A stretch of DNA of 32,000 nucleotides. Source: Pseudodesulfovibrio mercurii (GTDB lineage Bacteria > Desulfobacterota > Desulfovibrionia > Desulfovibrionales > Desulfovibrionaceae). The stretch spans positions 2,040,001 to 2,072,000 of the forward strand of contig NC_016803.1 of assembly GCF_000189295.2 (NCBI RefSeq), in the 5' to 3' direction. The translations under genes and the position numbers were made by a program. Under the pieces are notes generated by a model that was not told where the DNA came from, made no database searches, and saw nothing but the letters and a program-made list of their open reading frames with translations. Positions 6,381-32,000 of the stretch are shown here, in pieces. Positions within the stretch are counted from its first letter, which is position 1, and the number at the start of each line of letters is the position of its first letter.

Positions 6381-6956
6381 ATGAAACGGATTCTTCCCCT
6401 GCTCTTCGTCGCCCTCCTGGCCCTGGGACTGAGCGCCTGCAACCAGGAGCCGTCGGCCAAGATCGGCATCGTGGACGAGGCCGCCGCCTTCAAGGACAAC
6501 AAGCTGGCCACCGAGGCCATGGCCCACCTCCAGGAGATGGGCAAGCCCCTCCAGGAAAAGGCCGAGGCCGCGTACAAGGCCATGCAGGCCAACCAGACCG
6601 AAGAGACCGTGGCCGCCTACAAGCTGGCCATGGGTGAACTCCAGAACACCATGACCGCCGAGCAGCAGCGCATCGTCGGCATGGTCGACGCCAAGTTCAA
6701 CGAGGTCCTGGAGACCTACCGCAAGGAAAAGGGGCTGACCGCCATCCTGAGCAAGCAGGCCGTGATCGCCTCCGACGATGCCGTGGACATCACCAAGGAC
6801 ATCGTGGCCGCCATGAACAAGGTCACCATGGACTTCTCCCTGCCCGAGGCCCCCAAGGCCGAGGCTCCGGCCCCGGCGGCCGAACAGGCCGCTCCGGCGG
6901 CTGCGCCCGCCCCGGCTCCGGCAGCGGACCAGGCCCCGGCCAAGGCCGCGGAATAG
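6381..6956 (+). CDS. OmpH/Skp-family periplasmic chaperone-like lipoprotein with a Pro/Ala-rich tail
   Basis: ATG at 6381 with GGAGA upstream. Signal peptide with lipobox LGLSAC. Skp-like IGIVD...coiled coil...DITKDIVAAMNK. The C-terminus is a low-complexity APAPAAEQAAPAAAPAPAPAA tail. Confidence 0.75.
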   Translation: MKRILPLLFVALLALGLSACNQEPSAKIGIVDEAAAFKDNKLATEAMAHLQEMGKPLQEKAEAAYKAMQANQTEETVAAYKLAMGELQNTMTAEQQRIVGMVDAKFNEVLETYRKEKGLTAILSKQAVIASDDAVDITKDIVAAMNKVTMDFSLPEAPKAEAPAPAAEQAAPAAAPAPAPAADQAPAKAAE

Positions 6957-6973
6957 CCCACCCCGACACGCCA

Positions 6974-7015
6974 CAAAAAAAGGCCTGTCCACCCCACGGT
7001 GGACAGGCCTTTTTC
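6974..7015. terminator. Bidirectional rho-independent terminator
   Basis: A7 run, then 13-bp stem aggcctgtccacc / ggtggacaggcct (6981-7010), then T5. Serves the convergent OmpH-like and Hpt genes. Confidence 0.7.
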
Positions 7016-7031
7016 CGTTCCGGCACACGGC

Positions 7032-7376
7032 TCAGCCGAGGTTCCGGAAATCGAGCATGCGTTCCCTGGCCATGTCCAGCTTGCCGGTGAACGCGTCGAG
7101 CTTTTCGCGGACCCGGTCCAGGTTCCCGTCCCGCCCGGCATATTCCATTTCCAGGGCCAGCCCGACCAGGACGTCGGCGCGGACCACGCCGCACATGCCC
7201 TTGAGCGAGTGGGCCAGCTTGGTCGCCTGGACCGCGTCCCCGCCGTCCAGGGCCTCGATCAGCTCGGCCACGCGCCTGGGGCAGTCCTCGAGAAAGGCGT
7301 CGATGAGTTCCACGCCCAACTCCCGGTCGTGGGCCAGACTGGCCAGAAACTGCTGGCTGTCGAACAAATCCCGCAT
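7032..7376 (-). CDS. Standalone histidine phosphotransfer (Hpt) domain protein
   Basis: ATG at 7376 preceded by GGGGAAG. Contains the Hpt phospho-His motif AHSLKGMCG. Total length 114 aa. Confidence 0.8.
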   Translation of the reverse strand: MRDLFDSQQFLASLAHDRELGVELIDAFLEDCPRRVAELIEALDGGDAVQATKLAHSLKGMCGVVRADVLVGLALEMEYAGRDGNLDRVREKLDAFTGKLDMARERMLDFRNLG

Positions 7377-7527
7377 GATACTTCCCCTTCCCTTGCAAGT
7401 CCCCATGCGCGTTTCAACGTACCATCCGTGAATGGGCTTGGAAAGGGATTTCCGGGACATGCGGGGGACGAGGACGGCAATTTTGCCCAAAAACCGGGCT
7501 GGATCGCCGAAAATCGCGCCTTTCGGT

Positions 7528-8826
7528 CTACAGACAGGTGCAGGACCCGCCGGACAGCCGGTCCCAGCGTCCCTGGCGGAAGGCGAGCAGGATCTCCTGC
7601 ACGGTGCGGTCCCGGCAGCCGCGCAGGCACAGGCGGACCGCCTGGTGCCGGAACCCCTCGGCCACACGCCGGGCGTGGGAGCCGTGGGAACGCACCCAGA
7701 CGTCGGCCTCGGGCGCGACGGAGCGGATGCGGCCGTAGGCCTCCTCCCCGCCCAGGCCGCCCAGCTGCGGGGCCGCCACCACCGTGGGACGGGTCAGGGC
7801 CAGGGTCCCGCGCCGCCCCAGGAACGAAAGTTTGGATTCGCCGCACAACAGCGCGCCGCACTCGGCGTCGCCGTAGCGGAAGACCAGGCCGGACGCGGAC
7901 GCCCCCAGCCGCCTTACCGCCTGGAACACGGCCGGGGCCGACACGCGGGCCGGTGCGCCCTCCCCCCGGCCGGGCCGGACCGGATCGGAAACGCCTTCCC
8001 GGCCTTCCGGGACGGGCAGGCCGTTCAGGCACATGACCGGATGCCGGGGCACCAGACGCTCCTCGAGCCGCCCGGTCTGCCGGAACCAGCGCACCCGGAC
8101 CCCGCCCCGGAACAGCAGTCCCTGGACCGCCACGGCCAGGGCCAGGACGCCCGCCATCTCGCGGGCCGCCGCGTGCGTGGACACGGCCAGCCCCTCGGCC
8201 CGGCAGGCCAGCAGCCGGGCGCAAAGCACGGCCCGCGTACCGGGGTCCACGTCAGCGGCGCGGCTCAGGCCGTCCAGGCAGAGGGACAAAAGCTCGCCGC
8301 CCCCCCGGTTCGCGGTCCCGGCCAGGAGCATCTCGGTGACCGAGGCAAAGGCGGACTCCGGCGTGAGGGGCCGGGGCCGGACCGGCAACCGGCCCGTGCA
8401 CGCGGCCGCCCCGAGCAGGGCCATGGTCGCGCCCGCGCTCAGGTCCCCGCCGCCCACCGGAGGCAGGGTGTCGGGCACGGGAAAGGACGCCTCCACGGGC
8501 ACGGGCCAGCCGCAGCGGACCAGCCAGTCCGGGAAGCCGCCGTCGAACGCGCCCGCCGCCCCGGCCAGGTCGAGCAGCCCCTCGGGCAGCCAGTACTCCC
8601 CCACCGGGTAGTCGGCGTCCATGAGATCCAGGATGCCGCCCAGCCGCTCGGGCGACGCGGACGTGCACACCGCCGCCCGAATCCTGCCCACCCGCCGCTC
8701 GCGCAGCAGGCGGGGCAGTCGCCCGGTCAATCCGCCCCCGTCGAAGAGATAGGCACCACGCCGCGTGGACAACAGGCAGGCCTCGCCCCGGTCCACCGGG
8801 AGCACTCTGAATAGCGTCGAATCCAT
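7528..8826 (-). CDS. Hypothetical protein with ComEC-type metallo-beta-lactamase-like pattern but degenerate metal-binding motif
   Basis: ATG at 8826 preceded by AGGAA. Third codon positions are strongly G/C. The N-terminus FRVLPVDRGEACLLSTRRGAYLFDGGG then IRAAVCTSASPERLGGIL resembles the MBL strand-loop and HxHxDH region, but with His/Asp replaced. The family assignment is from memory, not from a search. Confidence 0.7.
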   Translation of the reverse strand: MDSTLFRVLPVDRGEACLLSTRRGAYLFDGGGLTGRLPRLLRERRVGRIRAAVCTSASPERLGGILDLMDADYPVGEYWLPEGLLDLAGAAGAFDGGFPDWLVRCGWPVPVEASFPVPDTLPPVGGGDLSAGATMALLGAAACTGRLPVRPRPLTPESAFASVTEMLLAGTANRGGGELLSLCLDGLSRAADVDPGTRAVLCARLLACRAEGLAVSTHAAAREMAGVLALAVAVQGLLFRGGVRVRWFRQTGRLEERLVPRHPVMCLNGLPVPEGREGVSDPVRPGRGEGAPARVSAPAVFQAVRRLGASASGLVFRYGDAECGALLCGESKLSFLGRRGTLALTRPTVVAAPQLGGLGGEEAYGRIRSVAPEADVWVRSHGSHARRVAEGFRHQAVRLCLRGCRDRTVQEILLAFRQGRWDRLSGGSCTCL

Positions 8827-9063
8827 TTGTTTCCTTGATGAAATGAGATTACCGCCAGAATTTCGATTCCACTATATTCAAAGCGGTTTTCTATATCAAG
8901 AAATAATTTTATGGAAAAAATGCACCCTGCCGCAACAGGCTGTTTTTCCTGGTCTCTCTTTTGACACATGCGAGGAATCGAAAGAGCGATATTCAAACTT
9001 TTCCCATTAATTCAGCATATTGTACGTGACGGGTCCGGGTCTTGCACCGGAAAGACTTAGGCG

Positions 9064-9092
9064 TTGACAAGGTTTTGACCGATCATTATATG
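9064..9092 (+). promoter_or_regulatory. Sigma70-like promoter for the 3D-domain gene
   Basis: TTGACA at 9064-9069, a 16-17 nt spacer, then TTATAT/TATATG at 9086-9092. About 36 nt upstream of the ATG at 9128. Confidence 0.45.
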
Positions 9093-9127
9093 CCTCGGAC
9101 CTGAAAACGACAACGGAGCAATCCTGT

Positions 9128-9619
9128 ATGCGAATACTCTTCAATTACACGATCACCCCGGTCCTGTGCGCGGCCCTGGTGATCATGGCCGTGGTGGTCG
9201 TCGTCAAGCAACAGAAGATCGACGACCTGTCCCACCGCCTGGTACTGGCCCAAAAGACGGCCGAAGCGCGCAAGGTCATGGTCGAGGAGGTCCGCCTCCT
9301 GCAAAAGGCCAAGATGTCCCCGGTTCGCACGGTGACCGTGACCGCCTACAATCCCTCCACCGACCAGTGCGACGACGACCCGCTCATGGCCGCGTCCATG
9401 CGCAAGGTCCGCACCGGCACCATCGCGGTATCCCGCGACCTCTTCGACCAGGGCTGGGTGTTCGGCCGCAAGGTCCGCATCGAGGGCCTCGGCATCTTCG
9501 AGATCAACGACCTCATGAACAAGCGCTATCATCAGCGCATCGACATCTTCATGTGGGACGAATCCCAAGCCCGCGAGTTCGGGCGCAAGAACATCAAGGC
9601 GGCGCTGCTCGATATCTAG
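9128..9619 (+). CDS. Membrane-anchored 3D-domain (MltA/RlpA-like double-psi beta-barrel) protein
   Basis: ATG at 9128 with GGAG 9 nt upstream. An N-terminal TM helix is followed by VTVTAYNPSTDQCDDDP...TGTIAVSRDLF...IEGLGIFEINDLMNKRY...IDIFM, characteristic of 3D-domain proteins. Confidence 0.8.
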   Translation: MRILFNYTITPVLCAALVIMAVVVVVKQQKIDDLSHRLVLAQKTAEARKVMVEEVRLLQKAKMSPVRTVTVTAYNPSTDQCDDDPLMAASMRKVRTGTIAVSRDLFDQGWVFGRKVRIEGLGIFEINDLMNKRYHQRIDIFMWDESQAREFGRKNIKAALLDI

Positions 9620-9638
9620 CCCGAGCGGCTGCGGAAGT

Positions 9639-9665
9639 AAGGGCCCCGTACGGGGCCTTTTTCAT
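9639..9665 (+). terminator. Rho-independent terminator after the 3D-domain gene
   Basis: Stem ggcccc / ggggcc (9642-9657) with a GTAC loop, followed by TTTTT. Confidence 0.6.
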
Positions 9666-9732
9666 TTCTTGCGCCCGAAACAACAGCGGCTCGGGAGAGC
9701 CGCTGTTCGGGGCTCCGCCCCGAAAACGCACC

Positions 9733-12481: not shown

Positions 12482-13267
12482 ATGGACCGTTCCGCCACCG
12501 CACGACCCACGGCGCGCCACAAGGCGCTGTACGCCTTGAGCGTCGCGGCCCTGGCCCTGCTCCTGTGCGCCTGCTTCGGGGTGGTCTACAGCCTGCGCCT
12601 CCATCCGGACGCGGACCGCGACCGGCTCCTGCACCTGGCCTACCTGTGCATGGCGGGTGGGTTCCTGGTGCTCGCGGCCCAGGGGCTGCTGGTCTTCAAG
12701 AAGATTCTGGCCCCCATGGGCCGGGACGCGGCCCGCGCCGACGAACTGGCCGAGCTGGTGGAGCGGCTGGCGGTCCTGGACTCCCTGACCCAGGCCTACA
12801 ACCGGGGCAAGTTCGAGGAGATCATCACCCGGGAGCTGGACAACGTCCGGCGCTACGGCCTGGACCTGTCCGGAATCATGCTCGACGTGGACGGATTCCG
12901 GGCCATCAACCAGCTCCACGGCTACTACGCCGGCGACCGGTTGCTGGCCAACCTGGCCCACTACCTGGACGCCCAGCTGCGCAGCAACGACTTCCTGTTC
13001 CGCTGGCACGGCGGCAAGTTCATCATCCTCTGTCCGCACACGGACATCGACCGGGCGGCCATCGTGGCCGAGAAGATCCGCATGCTCGTGGGGCACAAGC
13101 TGTTCGGCGGCAAGGTCCGCATGTTCCTCTCCCTGGGCGTGGTCCAGGCCGAGGAGGAGGACACCGCCGAGACCCTCATGCAGCGGCTCCAGGCGGGCCT
13201 GGCCGCGTCCAAGAACGGCGGCCGGAACCAGGTCACCGTGGTCCGCGTCCCGCTCTTTTCCTACTGA
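12482..13267 (+). CDS. Membrane-anchored GGDEF-domain protein with degenerate active site (HGGKF) and intact RxxD I-site
   Basis: Two N-terminal hydrophobic segments. GGDEF-fold motifs DVDGFRAINQLHGYYAGDRLL. The A-site position reads RW-HGGKF (13007-13021) and RSND lies 5 residues upstream (12980-12991). Confidence 0.85.
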   Translation: MDRSATARPTARHKALYALSVAALALLLCACFGVVYSLRLHPDADRDRLLHLAYLCMAGGFLVLAAQGLLVFKKILAPMGRDAARADELAELVERLAVLDSLTQAYNRGKFEEIITRELDNVRRYGLDLSGIMLDVDGFRAINQLHGYYAGDRLLANLAHYLDAQLRSNDFLFRWHGGKFIILCPHTDIDRAAIVAEKIRMLVGHKLFGGKVRMFLSLGVVQAEEEDTAETLMQRLQAGLAASKNGGRNQVTVVRVPLFSY

Positions 13268-13396
13268 CCCGGACCCCGTCCGGGGGCGGGTCCGAAGCCT
13301 TGGGAACAGTCGCGCCATCCCATTTCCTTTTTTCCCGGTTCTACGCTATATGGTGAGGGCGATAATCAGACACTCCGAACAGGACGGCCCGCAACC

Positions 13397-15877
13397 ATGG
13401 CGCAGGACAAGACCACCCACTATCTCAAATACGCCCCCACCAGGGTCCTGCTCCCCTCGGCCCTGATGCTTCTTCTCTTCGCCGGTTCCATCTTCCTCTA
13501 CCTTCTGCCCTCGGTGGAGACGGCCCTGCTCGACGCCCAGAAGGAAAAGGTCGTGGAGATCACCGACACCGTGGTCGGCACCCTGGTCCACCTGAACGAC
13601 ATGGCCGAGCGCGGCGAGATATCCCTCGACTACGCCCACCGGCTGGGCGCGGAGTTCGTCAAGACCACCCGCTACGGCCCGGAGGCCAAGGCCTATTTCT
13701 GGATCACGGACCTGACCCCGCGCATGATCATGCACCCCTACCGGCCCGACCTGGACGGCCAGGACCTGACCGACTACCGGGACCGCGAGGGCAAGCGGAT
13801 ATTCATGGAGTTCCTGCACGCGGCCCGGCGCAACCAGGACGCCTTCGTGGACTACTACTGGCAGTGGCAGGACCAGCCCGAGCGCATCGCCCGCAAGCTC
13901 TCCCACGTGCGTCTGTTCGCCCCCTGGGGCTGGGTTATCGGCACCGGCCTGTACACCGACGACGTGCATGCCGAAATCGGCGTGTACCGCAACCACGTGG
14001 CCCTGATCTTCCTCGGCATCCTGCTGGCCAGCGCCCTGCTCTCCCTGTACGTGGTCCGCCAGGCGGGCATGACCGAAATGAAGAAGGCCCAGATCCAGGG
14101 CCAGCGGGAAAAACTGGTCCGCGTGCTCCAGGAGAGCGAGGAGCGCTACCGGACCATCGCGGACTTCGGCTACGACTGGGAGATATGGATCGGTACGGAC
14201 AACTCCATCCACTACTGCTCCCCGGCCTGCCAGCGGATCACCGGGTACCCGCCCGAGCGGTTCTTCGAGGACCCCGGCCTGGTCCGGGAGATCATCATCA
14301 ACGACGACCAGGACGCCTGGGACGCCTATCTGGTGGAGGCCGACTCGGACCGGGGCGACTCGCTCGACTTCCGCATCCTGACCGCGGACGGCAAGGTCCG
14401 CTGGCTCGGCGTGGTCGGCCGGTCCGTGTCCGGCATCGGCGGCAAGCCCCTGGGCATGCGCCTGAGCTTCCGCGACATCACCGACCGCAAGACCATGGAG
14501 GAACAGCTCCGCCACCAGGCCCTGCACGACCCCCTGACCAACCTGGCCAACCGGACCCTGTGCCTGGACCGACTGGGCCAGGCCATGCGCCGGGCCAAAC
14601 GGCGCGAGAACTACTTCTTCGCGGTGGTCTTCCTGGACCTCGACCGCTTCAAGATCATCAACGACTCCCTGGGCCACCGCTTCGGCGACATGGTCCTGGC
14701 CGAGACGGCCATCCGGCTGTCCGGCGAGATGCGCGGCCTGGACACGGTCTCCCGGTTCGGCGGGGATGAGTTCGTCCTGCTCCTGGACGAGCTGTCCAGC
14801 CCCGGCGAGGCCATCCGGATCATCAAGCGCGTGCGCGAGCGGCTGTCCGAGCCCTTCCGCTTCAACGGCAACGAGGTCCAGACCACGGCCAGCTTCGGCA
14901 TCGTCCTGAGCCCCGTGGTGGACGGCAAGGCCCCGGACGTGCTGCAACACGCCAACATCGCCATGCACCGCGCCAAGGAGGCCGGACGCAACCGCTTCAA
15001 GGTCTTCACCGAGCGCATGCTCGAGACCGCCGTGGACCAGCTGACCCTGGAGAACGACATGCGCCGGGGGCTGGCCAACGACGAGTTCCACGTGGTCTAC
15101 CAGCCGATCATGGACCTGAACGGCTCGGACGTGGTCGGCTTCGAGGCCCTGGCCCGCTGGGACCACCCGGACCGGGGGGCCATCCCGCCCGCCGAGTTCA
15201 TCCCCATGGCCGAGGAGTCCGGGCTGATCGTCGAGCTGGGCGAGTGGGTCCTGCAACAGGCCCTGCGCACCCTGGCCGGGTGGCGCAACGACACCCCGGG
15301 CGTGGACGACATCTTCATGTCCGTGAACCTGTCGAGCAAACAGTTCGCCCGTATCGAGCTGGACAAGATCGTGGTCCGGACCCTGGAGCGGTACGGCCTG
15401 CCCCCGTCCTGCCTCAAACTCGAGATCACCGAGTCCTCCATCATGGGCAACCCGGAATCCTCCCTGCGCATCCTGAACCGGCTGCGCAAGGCCGGGGTGC
15501 GCTTCTCCATCGACGACTTCGGCACGGGCTACTCCTCCCTGTCCCAACTCCAGCAACTGCCCGTGGACACCCTCAAGGTGGACCGGACCTTCATCTCGCG
15601 CATGCGCACCGACCCGGAGAACATGGAGATCGTCAAGGCGGTCATCGCCCTGGGCCACTCGCTGGACCTGAACGTGGTCGCCGAGGGCGTGGAGAACCCG
15701 GAACAGCTCTGCTCCCTGCTCAACCTGTCGTGCAACTGCGTCCAGGGGTTCTACTTCCACGAGCCCATGAACGCGGCCCTGGCCCGTGAGATGCTCCGGC
15801 AGCGCACCGCCCGGACCGCCGAGGAGACACGAGAAAAGGTTGAGGCCGCCCGGCGCGACTGCAAGCCCGACGAATAG
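13397..15877 (+). CDS. Cache-PAS-GGDEF-EAL c-di-GMP turnover protein
   Basis: The periplasmic segment between two TM helices has the Cache-like YFWITD...MIMHPYRPDLDGQDL. A PAS region follows. Intact RGLD...GGDEF. EAL motifs EALARW, DDFGTGYSSL, KVDRTFI and EGVE are all present. Confidence 0.9.
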   Translation: MAQDKTTHYLKYAPTRVLLPSALMLLLFAGSIFLYLLPSVETALLDAQKEKVVEITDTVVGTLVHLNDMAERGEISLDYAHRLGAEFVKTTRYGPEAKAYFWITDLTPRMIMHPYRPDLDGQDLTDYRDREGKRIFMEFLHAARRNQDAFVDYYWQWQDQPERIARKLSHVRLFAPWGWVIGTGLYTDDVHAEIGVYRNHVALIFLGILLASALLSLYVVRQAGMTEMKKAQIQGQREKLVRVLQESEERYRTIADFGYDWEIWIGTDNSIHYCSPACQRITGYPPERFFEDPGLVREIIINDDQDAWDAYLVEADSDRGDSLDFRILTADGKVRWLGVVGRSVSGIGGKPLGMRLSFRDITDRKTMEEQLRHQALHDPLTNLANRTLCLDRLGQAMRRAKRRENYFFAVVFLDLDRFKIINDSLGHRFGDMVLAETAIRLSGEMRGLDTVSRFGGDEFVLLLDELSSPGEAIRIIKRVRERLSEPFRFNGNEVQTTASFGIVLSPVVDGKAPDVLQHANIAMHRAKEAGRNRFKVFTERMLETAVDQLTLENDMRRGLANDEFHVVYQPIMDLNGSDVVGFEALARWDHPDRGAIPPAEFIPMAEESGLIVELGEWVLQQALRTLAGWRNDTPGVDDIFMSVNLSSKQFARIELDKIVVRTLERYGLPPSCLKLEITESSIMGNPESSLRILNRLRKAGVRFSIDDFGTGYSSLSQLQQLPVDTLKVDRTFISRMRTDPENMEIVKAVIALGHSLDLNVVAEGVENPEQLCSLLNLSCNCVQGFYFHEPMNAALAREMLRQRTARTAEETREKVEAARRDCKPDE

Positions 15878-29330: not shown

Positions 29331-30758
29331 TCACCTTGGTGCCGACCCCTCCATGGAGGCCAGGTCCACCCGACCGCCCAGCTCGCCCACGATCTTGTGG
29401 ATCTGGGCCAGTCCCAGGCCCACGCCCTTGTCCTTGGTGGAGAAGAACGGGCTGAAGATCTTGTCGCGGATGTCCAGCGGGATGCCCACCCCGGTGTCCT
29501 CCACCACGAGCATGGCCATGTCGCGGTTCATGGCCGTGGTCACGTACAGCTTGCCGCCCGAGGGCATGGCCTCCAGGCCGTTCTTGACCAGGTTGATGAG
29601 GCACTGCTTGATCAGGTCCGGGTTGGCGTGGACCTTGGCCATGCCTTCGTCCAGGGAGATGTGCGCCTCCACGCTCTGGTTGGAGCACGGCAGCTGCATG
29701 ACGTCCATGGTGGCCGAGACCACCTCGTTCAGGTCCACCTCCGCCACCCGGGCCTCGGTGGGCCGGGTGAAGTTGAGCAGGCTGCGCAGGACCTCGTCCA
29801 GCCGCCGGGACTCGTCCAGGATGATGGACAGCTTCTCGCGCGCCTTGATGCCCACGTCCTTGTCGCGCATGAGCGAGTTGGCGAAGCCGCTGATGGAAAA
29901 CAGGGGGTTGCGGATCTCGTGGGCCATGTAGGTGGACAGCTCGCCGATGGAGGCCAGCCGCTCGGCCTGTTGCAGCCGGTTCTCCATGGCCCGCCGCTGG
30001 GTGATGTCGCGGCGCATGGCCACCACGTGGTTGACCGACCCGTCCTCGTCGGCCACCGGGCTGGTGTAGACCCGGTAGTACTGGACCCGGCCGTCCGGGT
30101 CCACTAGGCTGGTGGTGGCCTCGGCCGGGGCGTGGGTGCGCATGGTCGCCTCGAAGGGGTCCTCCCACTCCTCGCACTCGCCCTCGTTGGTCCGGGTGAA
30201 AATCTCGCAGTAGTGCCTGCCGAGCAGGACCCGCTTGGGCAGGCCGGAGCGGTTCAGCACGGTCTGGTTCATGCCGATGACCATGCCGGTCCGGTCCAGG
30301 AACAGGATCTCCTGGTCCATCTGGTCGATGATGGTCTTGAGCATGTTCTGGGTCTGCAGCAGGTCCACCTTGCAGGCCACCCACATCTGGTTGGAGGCCA
30401 GCAGGTTGATGAAGAAATGGGCCGCGCCGCGCTCCACCAGGGTGATGGACGGCGGCAGGTACTTGCGCAGCTCGTAGACCAGCGCCGGACGGCCCGTGGC
30501 CTCGATGACCATGTTGATCTCGGGGTGCTTCTCGAGCATGGCCTTGTAGCCCGCGTAGGTGGGGATGATCCGGCCCGCGTCGTGGGCCTCGGGCAGCACG
30601 GCCTCGCCCGGCAGGGCCACGGCCACCACGCCGATCTCCTTGAGGGTCTCGTCGTTGCCCTGGTCCTTGAACATCTCCCAGAAGGCCAGGAGCGCGGGGA
30701 TGTCTCCGATGACGCCGATGATGTATCGTTTGTCGTCCACGATGGAACCTTCGATCAT
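29331..30758 (-). CDS. PAS sensor histidine kinase with an N-terminal Rossmann-like domain; 3' end disrupted by an apparent 1-nt frameshift
   Basis: ATG at 30758 preceded by GGAGGAGG. H-box STYMAHEIRNPL, N-box LINLVKNGLEAM, G1 VEDTGVGI and G2 GVGLGLA are present. The frame stops at 29331, while the expected ending ...GVGTKVTLYLP continues in another frame to 29278. Confidence 0.8.
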   Translation of the reverse strand: MIEGSIVDDKRYIIGVIGDIPALLAFWEMFKDQGNDETLKEIGVVAVALPGEAVLPEAHDAGRIIPTYAGYKAMLEKHPEINMVIEATGRPALVYELRKYLPPSITLVERGAAHFFINLLASNQMWVACKVDLLQTQNMLKTIIDQMDQEILFLDRTGMVIGMNQTVLNRSGLPKRVLLGRHYCEIFTRTNEGECEEWEDPFEATMRTHAPAEATTSLVDPDGRVQYYRVYTSPVADEDGSVNHVVAMRRDITQRRAMENRLQQAERLASIGELSTYMAHEIRNPLFSISGFANSLMRDKDVGIKAREKLSIILDESRRLDEVLRSLLNFTRPTEARVAEVDLNEVVSATMDVMQLPCSNQSVEAHISLDEGMAKVHANPDLIKQCLINLVKNGLEAMPSGGKLYVTTAMNRDMAMLVVEDTGVGIPLDIRDKIFSPFFSTKDKGVGLGLAQIHKIVGELGGRVDLASMEGSAPR

Positions 30759-30861
30759 TTGACCTCCTCCCCGTCCTGTGCTCATCTGCGCGCGCGTCCG
30801 GGCTGGACTTTGCACCGACTCAAGGCTACCCCATTCAGGAAACGTTATCAAAGGAAATGAC

Positions 30862-32000
30862 ATGCCGAAAACCCCCGCCACCGCCGTGCGAACATACACC
30901 GTCAGCCTCGGCTGTCCCAAGAACCGCGTGGACACCGAACGGCTGCTCGGAGCCCTGGGTCCGCACATGGTTCCGGCGGACGACGCGGCCGGGGCCGACC
31001 TGGTCCTGATCAACACCTGCGGCTTCATCCAGCCCGCCGTGGAGGAGTCCGTGGCCACCATCCTGGACGTCATCGGCGAGGCCGCCGAGACCTTCGACAG
31101 GACCGGGCGCAGGCCGCTCATCTGCGTGGCCGGGTGCCTGGTCTCGCGCTACGGCGAGGACCTCCGGAGCGAGCTGCCCGAGGTGGACCTGTGGCTGAAC
31201 ACCGAGGAGATCGAGCAGTGGCCCGCCATGGCCGCGCGCGCCCTGGCCCTGCGCCTGACCGGCGACACCCCGCGCAGCCTGTCCACCGGCCCGTCCTACG
31301 CCTACCTCAAGGTCTCGGAGGGGTGCTCGCACAACTGCCGGTTCTGCACCATCCCGTCCATCCGGGGACCGCACCGGAGCTGGCCCGTGGACTTCCTGCT
31401 GAACGAGGCGCGGCTGCTGGCGGGCCAGGTGCCCGAGATCATCGTGGTCGGCCAGGACTCCACGGCCTACGGCTCGGACCTGGGGCCGGGCAACGACCTG
31501 CCGACCCTGCTCAGGGGGCTGGCCGCCATCCCGGACCTCCACTGGCTGCGCATCATGTACCTCTACCCCGCCGGGCTGACCGAGTCCCTGCTCGGCCTGC
31601 TGCGCGACACGGGCGCGCCGTTCCTGCCCTATTTCGACATCCCCCTGCAACACGCCCACCCGGACGTGCTCGCGTCCATGGGCCGCCCGTTCGCCCGCAA
31701 CCCGGAAAAGGTCGTGGAGCGGGTGCGCAGGTTCTTCCCGGAGGCGGCCCTGCGGACCACCTTCATCGTCGGCTATCCCGGCGAGACCGAGGCCCACTTC
31801 CGGACCCTCATGGACTTTGTGCGGGAAACCCGCTTCCACCACCTCGGCGTCTTCCCCTACTGGGCCGAGGAGGGCACCCCGGCGGCGGCCATGGACGGCC
31901 AGGTGCCGGACGAGGTCAAGCTGGACCGCCGCGACCGGCTCATGGCCCTCCAGGCCGAGATCAGCGCCGAGATTCTGGAAGGATACGTGGGCGCGACCCT
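30862..32000 (+). CDS. rimO: Ribosomal protein S12 methylthiotransferase RimO (5' partial, runs off the window)
   Basis: Hand translation from the ATG at 30862, with AAGGAA upstream. The N-terminal UPF0004 cluster is VSLGCPKNRVD...INTCGF. The radical-SAM motif is SEGCSHNCRFCTIP. GYPGETE...GVFPYWAEEGTPAA follows. It is absent from the ORF track because no stop is reached. Confidence 0.9.
   Translation, partial: MPKTPATAVRTYTVSLGCPKNRVDTERLLGALGPHMVPADDAAGADLVLINTCGFIQPAVEESVATILDVIGEAAETFDRTGRRPLICVAGCLVSRYGEDLRSELPEVDLWLNTEEIEQWPAMAARALALRLTGDTPRSLSTGPSYAYLKVSEGCSHNCRFCTIPSIRGPHRSWPVDFLLNEARLLAGQVPEIIVVGQDSTAYGSDLGPGNDLPTLLRGLAAIPDLHWLRIMYLYPAGLTESLLGLLRDTGAPFLPYFDIPLQHAHPDVLASMGRPFARNPEKVVERVRRFFPEAALRTTFIVGYPGETEAHFRTLMDFVRETRFHHLGVFPYWAEEGTPAAAMDGQVPDEVKLDRRDRLMALQAEISAEILEGYVGAT

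What the first reader, a model, noticed from the sequence alone, without database searches (positions are those of the whole stretch)
7528..8826. Possible pseudo-enzyme: MBL (ComEC-type) fold pattern with the HxHxDH metal site replaced, next to an orphan Hpt
The N-terminus FRVLPVDRGEACLLSTRRGAYLFDGGG...IRAAVCTSASPERLGGIL has the same spacing and hydrophobic pattern as the first strands and HxHxDH loop of ComEC-type metallo-beta-lactamase domains (compare ...DVGQGD...LIDGGG...LTHxDxDHxGGL). The ligand positions, however, read S-A-S-P-E-R. The gene ends about 150 bp upstream of a standalone Hpt gene on the same strand, and no kinase or receiver is adjacent. A catalytically dead MBL scaffold beside a phosphorelay module is unusual.
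Basis: inference. Interest (0 to 1): 0.45.

Follow-up and report, generated by a model that had tools for sequence, protein, structure and literature searches.

The report
Dead ComEC-type MBL nuclease relative
This Pseudodesulfovibrio gene encodes a well-folded relative of a DNA-cutting metallo-beta-lactamase enzyme whose metal-binding residues have all been replaced, so it probably binds rather than cuts; its position next to the Hpt signalling gene looks like an accident of gene order.

Summary
The ORF at 7528-8826(-) is DND132_1842 of Pseudodesulfovibrio mercurii ND132 (432 aa). It has no Pfam, NCBIfam or PDB sequence hit. Its AlphaFold model (pLDDT 88, pTM 0.90) best matches the ComEC beta-lactamase-like domain (9ic4). 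Its family profile aligns at 100% probability (E 8e-59) with a large uncharacterised family of stand-alone ComEC-type MBL proteins. That family carries [ST]HxDxDH, NxxS, DS and PHHG motifs plus a C-terminal Cys4 zinc ribbon.

In the Pseudodesulfovibrio clade (51 representatives, monophyletic) every catalytic position has lost its constraint: H/D/D/H became S56/S58/E60/R61, N became S310, D became E330, and HH became Q354/L355. The fold core and the zinc ribbon are kept. The closest pairs give dN/dS of about 0.45.

Sister proteins that still carry HxDxDH sit at the same chromosomal locus, so the site decayed in place.

The Hpt link is weak. In earlier-branching relatives a glycosyltransferase gene lies between the two genes, the whole 12-kb block is syntenic, and active relatives elsewhere have no Hpt neighbour.

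The most likely role is a non-catalytic binding protein, perhaps for nucleic acid. That role is inferred, not shown.

The parts
7528..8826 (-). DND132_1842, 432 aa: catalytically degenerate, stand-alone ComEC-type MBL-fold protein with a helical insert and a C-terminal zinc ribbon
   Evidence: ORF. 100% identical to P0001, hypothetical protein DND132_1842. AF2 model pLDDT 88.1, pTM 0.90. Foldseek top hit 9ic4 ComEC MBL domain. hhalign probability 100% against motif-bearing relatives.
8581..8826 (-). N-terminal half of the MBL fold (residues 1-82). This is the most conserved part of the protein in the clade.
   Evidence: DSSP strands 4-8, 17-21, 24-28, 49-53 and 75-81. Mean identity within the clade is 0.67. 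G14, D29, G31, G64, E77, W79 and P81 are shared with the active family.
8635..8667 (-). Remnant of motif 2 (residues 54-64, C-T-S-A-S-P-E-R-L-G-G). The active family has C-[TS]-H-x-D-x-D-H-x-x-G here.
   Evidence: Column table: H 1.00 became S56, D 1.00 became S58, D 1.00 became E60 (variable in the clade), and H 1.00 became R61 (Arg in 90% of the clade). Ala mutants of the ComEC equivalents H598, D600, D602 and H603 are virtually inactive (PMC12455585).
8107..8580 (-). Helical insert (residues 83-240) between the two halves of the fold. It is poorly conserved and shared only with the closest active clade.
   Evidence: Helices 83-92, 98-104, 130-144, 156-172, 177-191, 195-211 and 215-240. Mean identity 0.37. 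It is shorter or absent in distant active members.
7642..8106 (-). C-terminal half of the MBL fold (residues 241-395), with the remnants of the NxxS, motif-4 and motif-5 positions
   Evidence: N 0.99 became S310; D 0.99 became E330 (D in only 0.48 of the clade); HH 0.99 became Q354 and L355. N268, Y364 and W377-V378-R379 are kept. Net charge of this segment is +9.
7756..7773 (-). Remnant of motif 5: A352-P-Q-L-G-G357, where the active family and ComEC have (A/V)-P-H-H-G-S
   Evidence: The ComEC H725A and S728A mutants show reduced nuclease activity (PMC12455585).
7528..7641 (-). C-terminal Cys4 zinc-ribbon-like module (C400, C404, C429, C431) plus the stop codon
   Evidence: These columns are Cys in 0.98-0.99 of the active family and in 0.80-1.00 of the degenerate clade. 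The spacing changed from CxxC to Cx3C. Metal binding is inferred from the pattern and was not tested.
8871..8899 (-). Sigma-70-like promoter of the MBL-like gene (TTGATA-17-TATAGT). It overlaps a conserved upstream element, ATATAG-N13-ATATAG.
   Evidence: Promoter scan: 2 sites found against 0.1 expected. The ATATAG and AATAT blocks are invariant in all 8 aligned loci, including the HxDxDH-bearing sister L013.
7377..7527 (-). 151-bp spacer between the MBL-like gene and Hpt. No terminator-like site was detected in it.
   Evidence: Co-transcription is therefore possible but untested.
7032..7376 (-). Stand-alone Hpt gene (114 aa, H56 in HSLKG). It is a neighbour and is not shown to be a partner.
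   Evidence: Pfam Hpt E 7e-14. It lies downstream in most related loci but is separated from the MBL gene by a glycosyltransferase gene in L012, L013 and L014.
9128..9619 (+). Divergently transcribed 163-aa membrane-anchored protein ('p3D'). It is the most constant neighbour of the MBL-like gene.
   Evidence: Present head-to-head in every related locus, at 68-93% identity. No Pfam or PDB hit. Weak NCBIfam match to the C-terminus of cell-wall-binding EntA (E 0.002).

Best explanation
DND132_1842 is a vertically inherited, catalytically dead descendant of a stand-alone ComEC-type metallo-beta-lactamase nuclease family.

Shown:
- It keeps the alpha-beta/beta-alpha fold, a helical insert and a C-terminal Cys4 zinc ribbon.
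- Every position that binds the two metal ions or the substrate phosphate in ComEC and in its own active relatives has been replaced or has lost its constraint.
- The second His of the DH pair is now a fixed arginine (R61).
- The loss happened once, in place, at a fixed chromosomal locus. Sister proteins at the same locus still carry HxDxDH.
- The gene stays an intact ORF under purifying selection and has a conserved upstream promoter element.

Inferred:
- It no longer hydrolyses anything.
- It works as a non-catalytic binding protein. It would use the old substrate groove (now carrying R61 where a metal sat), the zinc ribbon and a clade-specific gain of positive charge to hold an anionic ligand, most plausibly nucleic acid or a nucleotide. 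This would resemble the inactive MBL modules of CPSF100, INTS9 or the N-terminal half of tRNase ZL.
- Its position next to Hpt is a by-product of conserved gene order and the loss of an intervening glycosyltransferase gene. It is not a phosphorelay partnership.
For: Identity: 100% match to DND132_1842.

Fold: AF2 pLDDT 88 and pTM 0.90. Foldseek's best PDB hit is ComEC 9ic4, and the other top hits are all MBLs.

Homology: the profile search finds 646 representatives. Relatives from P0058 onward carry [ST]HxDxDH, PHHG and CxxC..CxC and hit Pfam Lactamase_B. hhalign of A1 against A3 gives probability 100%, E 8e-59. The A3 profile hits ComEC 9ic4 at E 1e-14.

Site loss: column frequencies compare 145 active with 50 degenerate representatives. 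The ComEC ligand residues were validated by mutagenesis (PMC12455585).

Single origin and stepwise decay: in the NJ tree the degenerate clade is monophyletic. Its sister is P0051/52/55 (HD[DVE]H, RH), and the next group out is the fully intact clade.

Decay in place: P0051 and P0055 lie in the same syntenic block.

Selection: dN/dS is 0.43-0.47 in the least saturated pairs. There are 28 invariant positions, including new clade-specific ones: R44, R50, R61, W101, H262, C323 and E411. The promoter element is conserved.

Charge: median pI 9.26 and net charge +12 in the clade, against 7.05 and 0 in the active family, and 7.83 and +1.5 in the closest active clade.
Against: - No biochemical, expression or phenotype data exist. 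No paper mentions the locus tag.
- I could not read the model coordinates, so the absence of a re-formed metal site rests on conservation patterns only.
- dN/dS is 3-4 times that of the flanking genes, so constraint is weak.
- The ligand is unknown. The isolated ComEC MBL domain binds DNA undetectably weakly in vitro (PMC12455585), so DNA binding cannot be assumed from the fold.
- The higher pI could partly reflect composition in a 67% GC genome.
- Hpt does lie downstream, directly or one gene away, in most loci, so a functional link is not excluded.
Confidence: 0.55

Rival explanations
1. Phosphorelay accessory. The dead MBL scaffold works with the downstream Hpt protein, for example by docking it or gating phosphotransfer, and the two genes are co-transcribed.
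For: The two genes are on the same strand, 151 bp apart, with no terminator-like site between them. Hpt is downstream of the MBL gene in the window and in L004/5, L010, L011, L012, L013 and L014. The two genes evolve at similar, elevated rates: dN/dS 0.43-0.47 against 0.32-0.47.
Against: A glycosyltransferase gene separates them in L012, L013 and L014. An opposite-strand gene follows the MBL gene in L002. Hpt is absent within 6 kb in L001. The whole block of more than 12 kb is syntenic, so adjacency carries little information. None of the seven loci of active relatives has an Hpt. No domain in the protein is known to bind Hpt.
Confidence: 0.1
2. Decaying relic. After the nuclease activity was lost, the gene became dispensable. 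It is drifting and has not yet been disrupted.
For: It is the fastest-evolving gene in the block: 37-75% identity where its neighbours keep 72-95%. Its dN/dS is 3-4 times that of p3D and the nitroreductase. The insert has only 0.37 mean identity.
Against: Full-length intact ORFs persist down to about 35% identity across 51 cluster representatives. dN/dS is clearly below 1. New clade-specific invariant residues appeared after the loss. The upstream promoter element is conserved. The zinc-ribbon cysteines are retained.
Confidence: 0.12
3. Still an enzyme. The site has been rebuilt for different chemistry, either metal-independent or mononuclear, using retained or new residues such as E77, N268, R61, H262 and the conserved cysteines.
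For: E77 and N268 are invariant in both the active and the degenerate groups. R61, H262 and the C202/H262/C266/C323 quartet are conserved in the clade. The N-terminal region around the old site is the best-conserved part of the protein.
Against: All four motif-2 ligands, the NxxS Asn, the motif-4 Asp and both motif-5 His are lost or variable. H262, C266 and C323 were already present in the closest clade that still has a complete canonical site, so they are not replacements. By strand polarity, H262 and C323 sit at the ends of their strands away from the site (inference).
Confidence: 0.1
4. Inactive partner of an active MBL nuclease. Like CPSF100 with CPSF73 or INTS9 with INTS11, it pairs with a catalytically competent MBL encoded elsewhere in the genome and supplies substrate binding.
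For: This is the best-documented role for dead MBL modules (PMC4819959; PMC3714273, listed). The fold and the dimer-capable scaffold are retained.
Against: No paralogue from the same genome appeared in the homologue search. There is no MBL gene in the 32-kb window. Active relatives are solitary genes with no conserved neighbour.
Confidence: 0.08

Closest known systems
ComEC beta-lactamase-like nuclease domain (e.g. Moorella glycerini BLACT, PDB 9ic4)
   Same: It is the best structural match over both halves of the fold. The active relatives of this protein hit it at E 1e-14 and share HxDxDH, N-x-x-S-L-V, D and PHHGS in the same order.
   Different: ComEC's domain is the extracytoplasmic C-terminal domain of a membrane channel and works with an OB fold. 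It is a Mn2+-dependent nuclease (PMC12455585). This protein is stand-alone, has no signal peptide or transmembrane segment, and carries a 158-residue helical insert and a Cys4 ribbon. It lacks every ligand whose mutation inactivates ComEC.
Unnamed family of stand-alone ComEC-like MBL proteins with a C-terminal CxxC...CxC ribbon (alignment A3; 646 representatives at E<=1e-3)
   Same: Clear homology over the whole length (hhalign 100%). Shared features are GD, DGG, E-W-P, N268, Y364, W-V-R-S and four ribbon cysteines. The closest subgroup also shares the long insert and the HPxxC(V/L)NG motif.
   Different: Those proteins keep all catalytic motifs. They are near-neutral in charge and sit in variable neighbourhoods, some of them defence-island-like. 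The window protein belongs to a monophyletic offshoot that lost the motifs and is fixed at one chromosomal locus.
CPSF100, INTS9 and the N-terminal half of tRNase ZL (inactive MBL-fold modules of eukaryotes)
   Same: They keep an MBL fold whose HxHxDH ligands are lost, under selection for a non-catalytic role (PMC4819959; PMC3714273, listed).
   Different: Those are beta-CASP or tRNase Z lineages that act as obligate partners of an active paralogue. No paralogue or partner was found here. The lineage is ComEC-type and bacterial.
Defence-system MBL proteins (Avs1a, MBL-type LmuA, DRT-associated RTasMBL, PDC-M48B, 6A-MBL)
   Same: Active relatives give weak matches, mostly N-terminal but near full-length for some (P0085 and P0130 against LmuA, E 1e-13 to 1e-15). 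Some of them sit beside TIR, AAA_15/21, PIN or AbiEii genes.
   Different: All scores are far below the curated cut-offs (for example Avs1a 30-44 bits against 420). The window protein itself matches none of these models. No partner genes of those systems are present.

Membership tests
Metallo-beta-lactamase superfamily (fold level) | alpha-beta/beta-alpha sandwich fold | tested here: met
   AF2 model with pLDDT 88. All top Foldseek PDB hits are MBLs, and 9ic4 is covered at TM 0.65.
Metallo-beta-lactamase superfamily (fold level) | Demonstrable homology to bona fide members | tested here: met
   No direct Pfam, NCBIfam or PDB sequence hit. The link is transitive: A1 to A3 at hhalign 100%, E 8e-59; A3 members hit Lactamase_B and ComEC 9ic4 at E 1e-14.
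Metallo-beta-lactamase superfamily (catalytically competent members) | Motif 2, HxHxDH (HxDxDH in the ComEC type) | tested here: not met
   S56-A-S58-P-E60-R61. These columns are 100% H/D/D/H in 145 active representatives.
Metallo-beta-lactamase superfamily (catalytically competent members) | Motif-4 Asp and motif-5 His | tested here: not met
   E330 (Asp in only 48% of the clade, against 99% of active members). Q354 and L355 stand in place of HH.
ComEC beta-lactamase-like domain | Part of a ComEC/Rec2 protein with a competence channel domain (and OB fold) | tested here: not met
   The protein is a stand-alone 432-aa ORF with no Competence or ComEC Pfam or NCBIfam hit. True ComECs appear only at the far tail of the relatives' search.
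ComEC beta-lactamase-like domain | Metal-dependent nuclease activity | not testable with these tools
   This needs biochemistry. The residues shown to be essential in ComEC (H598, D600, D602, H603, D700; PMC12455585) are all substituted.
Stand-alone ComEC-like MBL + zinc-ribbon family (A3, unnamed) | Full-length homology, including the E-W-P, W-V-R-S and Y364 framework | tested here: met
   hhalign over 382 columns and the column table.
Stand-alone ComEC-like MBL + zinc-ribbon family (A3, unnamed) | C-terminal Cys4 pattern (CxxC ... CxC) | tested here: met
   C400, C404, C429 and C431 are conserved. The first pair is spaced Cx3C instead of CxxC. Zinc binding itself was not tested.
Stand-alone ComEC-like MBL + zinc-ribbon family (A3, unnamed) | Invariant catalytic set H-D-D-H / N / D / H-H | tested here: not met
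   The window protein belongs to the monophyletic degenerate offshoot.
Known anti-phage MBL components (Avs1a, LmuA-MBL, RTasMBL, PDC-M48B, 6A-MBL) | Score above the model cut-off, and the system's partner genes nearby | tested here: not met
   PADLOC and NCBIfam give no hit for the window protein. Its neighbours are housekeeping genes.
Pseudoenzyme (operational definition) | Loss of catalytic residues with retention of the fold under purifying selection | tested here: met
Pseudoenzyme (operational definition) | Experimentally demonstrated lack of activity | not testable with these tools
   This needs purified protein.
Hpt-coupled module | Co-occurrence with Hpt beyond what shared gene order explains | tested here: inconclusive
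   Hpt is downstream in 7 of 9 distinct loci, but with a glycosyltransferase gene between them in 3. All 9 loci share the same syntenic block. None of the 7 loci of active relatives has an Hpt.

The most novel reading that the evidence does not exclude
A solitary, possibly defence-related ComEC-type nuclease was captured at a fixed chromosomal site in an ancestor of Pseudodesulfovibrio. It was then converted step by step into a non-cutting sensor or regulator. In this reading the fixed arginine R61 takes the place of a metal ion, so the old active site now binds the phosphate of a nucleotide or nucleic-acid ligand and signals instead of hydrolysing. The ligand could, for example, be a cyclic (di)nucleotide, given the GGDEF and GGDEF-EAL genes in the same conserved block. 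The signal might pass to the co-directional Hpt.
Probability: 0.07. Interest if true: 0.7.

Novelty: new variant of a known kind. Interest (0 to 1): 0.38.

Why it matters
Inactive MBL-fold modules are well documented in eukaryotic RNA-processing complexes. The papers I found describe none in bacteria.

This case comes with an unusually complete evolutionary series. It runs from fully intact enzymes, through partly degraded sister proteins at the same locus, to a fully dismantled site with a fixed Arg in place of a metal ligand. That makes the conversion directly testable by resurrection mutagenesis.

It also flags a large family (646 representative clusters) of stand-alone ComEC-like MBL plus zinc-ribbon proteins. 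That family has no dedicated Pfam or NCBIfam model and no known function.

For annotation, the lesson is practical. This gene should not be called a hydrolase, and its adjacency to Hpt should not be read as a phosphorelay operon.

Tried and rejected
- Direct Pfam, NCBIfam, PADLOC and PDB sequence searches with the window protein found nothing useful. Even the clade profile against PDB gave only sub-threshold BcII hits at E about 0.3-0.5, plus a spurious designed helical repeat on the insert.
- The first Hpt translation used a frame-shifted coordinate (7377) and gave nonsense. This was corrected to 7376.
- The search for related loci with the broad alignment A1 failed because no conserved 7-10-mer was available. 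With A2 it returned only 3 loci, so I could not survey the genus for presence or absence.
- The BFVD fold search gave two unnamed viral proteins and nothing interpretable.
- tblastn of an active relative against plasmids and phages gave only N-terminal matches to other MBLs, apart from one Azospirillum replicon. I therefore dropped the idea that the family is typically plasmid- or phage-borne.
- Rfam found nothing real in 6500-9700. The two weak Thr_leader hits fall on the terminator hairpin.
- I considered that conserved H262, C266 and C323 might replace the lost ligands. I rejected this because they already coexist with a complete canonical site in the closest active clade.
- Literature searches for the locus tag and its neighbours found no paper.
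Full report
**1. What is at the coordinates**

The window is from Pseudodesulfovibrio mercurii ND132. The ORF at 7528..8826 on the minus strand (ATG start, 432 aa) is 100% identical to hypothetical protein DND132_1842. An AAGGAA ribosome-binding site precedes the ATG. A sigma-70-like promoter (TTGATA-17-TATAGT) lies at 8899..8871.

The positions aligned with HxHxDH read S56-A-S58-P-E60-R61, followed by G63-G64.

The next gene on the same strand is a stand-alone Hpt gene at 7032..7376 (114 aa, Pfam Hpt E 7e-14), 151 bp after the stop codon. My first translation of it was out of frame by one base, which is why searches found nothing for it.

The other neighbours, are:
- FlgE, a TPR protein, PfkB and FmdE/MoCF further downstream;
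- OmpH, convergent with Hpt;
- on the other side, a divergent 163-aa membrane protein ('p3D'), a Fer4-nitroreductase, a lipoprotein, a GGDEF protein and a Cache-PAS-GGDEF-EAL protein.

No kinase or receiver domain lies within about 5 kb. The nearest HisKA/HATPase gene is at 29331-31121.

**2. Is it an MBL fold?**

Direct sequence searches are blind to it: Pfam, NCBIfam, PADLOC and PDB phmmer all return nothing meaningful. Structure and profile methods are clear.

- An AlphaFold2 model built on 30 homologues has mean pLDDT 88.1 and pTM 0.90.
- Foldseek against the PDB puts the ComEC beta-lactamase-like domain of Moorella glycerini (9ic4) first: prob 1.00, TM 0.65 normalised to the 266-residue target, aligned across both halves. 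All the following top hits are metallo-beta-lactamase-fold proteins matching the N-terminal 65-107 columns.
- A profile of the family searched against 1.84 billion representative proteins finds 646 relatives at E<=1e-3.
- From about the 58th hit onward, these are 320-540-aa proteins that carry [ST]HxDxDH, (A/V)PHHG and a C-terminal CxxC...CxC. They reach Pfam Lactamase_B.
- Profile-profile alignment of the Pseudodesulfovibrio-type clade (A1) with 22 of these motif-bearing proteins (A3) gives probability 100%, E 8e-59, over 382 columns.
- The A3 profile in turn hits ComEC 9ic4 at E 1e-14, then full-length ComECs. A second aligned stretch matches N-x-x-S-L-V ... D ... PHHGS.

**3. Is the site really gone?**

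I aligned 199 full-length family members and compared column frequencies in 145 motif-bearing representatives and 50 members of the window's clade.

| Active family (frequency) | Window residue | Frequency in the degenerate clade |
|---|---|---|
| H (1.00) | S56 | S .52, F, A |
| D (1.00) | S58 | S .50, C, T |
| D (1.00) | E60 | E .50, G, D |
| H (1.00) | R61 | Arg in 90% |
| N of NxxS (0.99) | S310 | P, H, S |
| S of NxxS (0.94) | G313 | G .78, S .18 |
| Motif-4 D (0.99) | E330 | D .48, N .28, E .12 |
| H H of PHHG (0.99 each) | Q354, L355 | Q/R/G; Q/R/L |

In ComEC, H598, D600, D602, H603 and D700 coordinate Mn2+, and their Ala mutants are virtually inactive. H725 and S728 of the PHHGS region contact the substrate (PMC12455585). 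All of these equivalents are substituted here.

The framework, by contrast, is kept: G14, D29, G31, G64, E77-x-W79-x-P81, N268, Y364, W377-V378-R379 and the four ribbon cysteines C400, C404, C429 and C431.

The conserved His and Cys residues that might look like substitutes (H262, C266, C323, C202) already coexist with a complete canonical site in the closest active clade. They are therefore not replacements.

On this evidence the protein is a pseudoenzyme in the usual sense. Lack of activity itself remains to be shown.

**4. How the loss happened**

In a neighbour-joining tree of the 199 sequences (326 columns), all 51 representatives that lack the motif-2 histidines form one clade. Its sister is a trio, P0051/P0052/P0055, which keeps H-D-[D/V/E]-H and the motif-4 Asp but has N replaced by D and PHHG replaced by PRHG. 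The next group out is a fully intact clade (P0058, 60, 61, 63, 65, 68, 180-183) that shares the long helical insert. One early-branching member of the degenerate clade (P0053) has lost motif 2 but still has PHHGS.

The partly degraded sisters P0051 and P0055 lie at the same chromosomal place as the window gene: p3D divergent upstream, then the MBL gene, a glycosyltransferase, Hpt, OmpH (opposite strand) and FlgE. The gene was therefore already resident at this locus while it still carried HxDxDH, and it decayed in place.

Fully intact relatives from other phyla sit in unrelated, variable neighbourhoods with no conserved partner:
- beside a TIR_2 protein and an HTH protein (L006);
- between two AAA_15/AAA_21 ATPase genes and near an IS110 (L008);
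- among PIN, AbiEii and relaxase genes (L009);
- among ordinary metabolic genes (L007, L015-L017).

They match defence-system MBL models (Avs1a, MBL-type LmuA, RTasMBL, PDC-M48B, 6A-MBL) only weakly, far below the curated cut-offs. They are rare on sequenced plasmids and phages. A defence-related origin is possible but not established.

**5. Is the dead gene still used?**

- Intact full-length ORFs persist down to about 35% identity. Two apparently short homologues (P0035, P0036) are gene-calling truncations, because tblastn and the DNA alignment extend them upstream.
- For the two least saturated comparisons (against P. karagichevae L010 and D. caledoniensis L011), Nei-Gojobori dN/dS is 0.43-0.47. 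The values are 0.09-0.14 for p3D and the nitroreductase, and 0.32-0.47 for Hpt. Constraint is therefore real but weak.
- Conservation is uneven. Mean identity within the clade is 0.67 in the N-terminal half around the old site, 0.54-0.55 in the C-terminal half and the ribbon, and 0.37 in the insert.
- New invariant residues arose in the clade: R44, R50, R61, F94, W101, H262, C323 and E411.
- An upstream element (ATATAG-N13-ATATAG, overlapping the promoter-like site) is invariant in all eight aligned loci, including the sister L013.
- The clade is markedly more basic than its active relatives. Median pI is 9.26 and net charge +12, against 7.05 and 0 for the active family and 7.83 and +1.5 for the closest active clade. 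In the window protein the charge sits in the C-terminal half (+9) and the ribbon (+4).

**6. Most likely mechanism**

Shown: the fold is retained, the ribbon is retained, the metal site is dismantled, one ligand is replaced by a fixed Arg, and the gene is under purifying selection with its own conserved promoter.

Inferred: the protein no longer hydrolyses and acts by binding. The fixed R61 at a former metal position, together with the gain of positive charge, suggests that an anionic ligand is held without being cleaved. Nucleic acid or a nucleotide is the most plausible ligand, given the nuclease ancestry.

The best-documented parallels are CPSF100 and INTS9, which are inactive MBL modules retained for assembly and substrate recruitment (PMC4819959). 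A further parallel is the N-terminal half of tRNase ZL, which lacks the catalytic motifs; I know this case from memory and from PMC3714273, which was listed but which I did not read in full.

One caution applies. The isolated ComEC MBL domain binds DNA very weakly on its own (PMC12455585), so any binding here would have to come from the ribbon, the insert and the added charge.

**7. The Hpt question**

Hpt lies downstream of the MBL gene in most loci, and no terminator-like site separates the two genes here. Co-transcription is therefore possible.

Several observations argue against a specific link:
- A glycosyltransferase gene sits between them in L012, L013 and L014.
- In L002 an opposite-strand acetolactate-decarboxylase gene follows the MBL gene, then the glycosyltransferase. 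That contig ends before any Hpt could be seen.
- L001 has a convergent GGDEF-EAL gene instead of Hpt.
- The most constant neighbour is actually the divergent p3D gene.
- Everything within about 12 kb is syntenic across these genomes.
- No active relative elsewhere is near an Hpt.

The direct adjacency in P. mercurii and its closest relatives is best explained by loss of the glycosyltransferase gene. I give a specific MBL-Hpt partnership a probability of about 0.1.

**8. Comparison with what is known, and novelty**

The protein works like, and descends from, ComEC-type MBL nucleases. It fails the defining catalytic features of that family and is not part of a ComEC protein. It belongs to an unnamed family of stand-alone ComEC-like MBL plus zinc-ribbon proteins, as a catalytically degenerate offshoot.

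UniProt auto-names one orthologue 'Metallo-beta-lactamase domain-containing protein'. No paper mentions the gene, and I found no description of the site loss.

Dead MBL modules are a known kind of thing. A bacterial, ComEC-type, stand-alone example with a traceable stepwise decay at one locus is a new variant of that kind.

**9. Verdict**

The suggested significance of the Hpt neighbour is not supported. The function remains unknown; a non-catalytic binding role is the best-supported guess.

Interest is moderate (0.38). It is a clean, testable example of enzyme-to-pseudoenzyme conversion and a pointer to an uncharacterised MBL family, but it is not a surprising kind of event and there is no phenotype in hand.

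Noticed in passing
window 8827-9127 (intergenic region between the MBL-like gene and p3D): Two sequence blocks are invariant across all 8 related loci. One is CATATAAT-N14-CTTGTCAA. Read on the + strand it is TTGACA-N17-TATATG, a near-consensus promoter pointing at p3D. The other is ATATAG-N13-ATATAG, about 55 nt upstream of the MBL ATG. A terminator-like hairpin (8939-8926, minus strand) sits between them.
   Followed up: partly
window 9128-9619 (+): A 163-aa protein with an N-terminal hydrophobic segment is 68-93% identical across all related loci and always head-to-head with the MBL gene. It has no Pfam or PDB hit. It gives only a weak NCBIfam match (E 0.002) to the C-terminal part of cell-wall-binding protein EntA. 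From memory it resembles a 3D-domain protein, but this was not confirmed.
   Followed up: partly
window 7032-7376 (-): The stand-alone Hpt (H56 in HSLKG) evolves quickly for a signalling protein: 51-71% identity and dN/dS 0.32-0.47 against close relatives. It has no kinase or receiver within 5 kb. Its phosphorelay partners are unknown.
   Followed up: partly
window 6975-7010: A perfect 13-bp GC-rich hairpin (AGGCCTGTCCACC-GTGG-GGTGGACAGGCCT) is flanked by A and T runs on both sides, between the convergent Hpt and OmpH genes. It looks like a bidirectional intrinsic terminator. The terminator scan did not list it. Rfam gave weak Thr_leader hits on it, which I take to be spurious.
   Followed up: no
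L012 6315-8547; L013 6363-7487; L014 2012-3136; L002 8231-9205: A GT4-type glycosyltransferase gene lies between the MBL gene and Hpt in the earlier-branching relatives. It has no tblastn match anywhere in this window. It was apparently lost in the P. mercurii lineage, which created the direct MBL-Hpt adjacency.
   Followed up: yes
L001 5929-6000 and L004 5893-6000: The database gene calls for P0035 (412 aa) and P0036 (372 aa) start too late. tblastn and the DNA alignment show the conserved N-terminus (MTQFRxLP...) upstream of the called start. Their apparent N-terminal truncation in alignment A1 is an annotation artefact.
   Followed up: yes
residues C202, H262, C266, C323 of the window protein (window ~7858-8222): A Cys-His-Cys-Cys quartet is present in 45 of 51 degenerate-clade representatives and in 2 of the closest active ones. 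It is absent from the rest of the family. It may be a second structural metal site tying the helical insert to the core.
   Followed up: partly
window 12482-15877 (+): A GGDEF protein and a Cache-PAS-GGDEF-EAL protein belong to the same conserved gene block as the MBL-like gene in all relatives, so the neighbourhood is rich in c-di-GMP turnover genes.
   Followed up: no
L008 4636-10159 (Carboxydothermus islandicus): An intact member of the active MBL + zinc-ribbon family is flanked on both sides by AAA_15/AAA_21 (OLD/ABC-type) ATPase genes, next to an IS110 transposase fragment. This could be an uncharacterised defence-like cassette.
   Followed up: no
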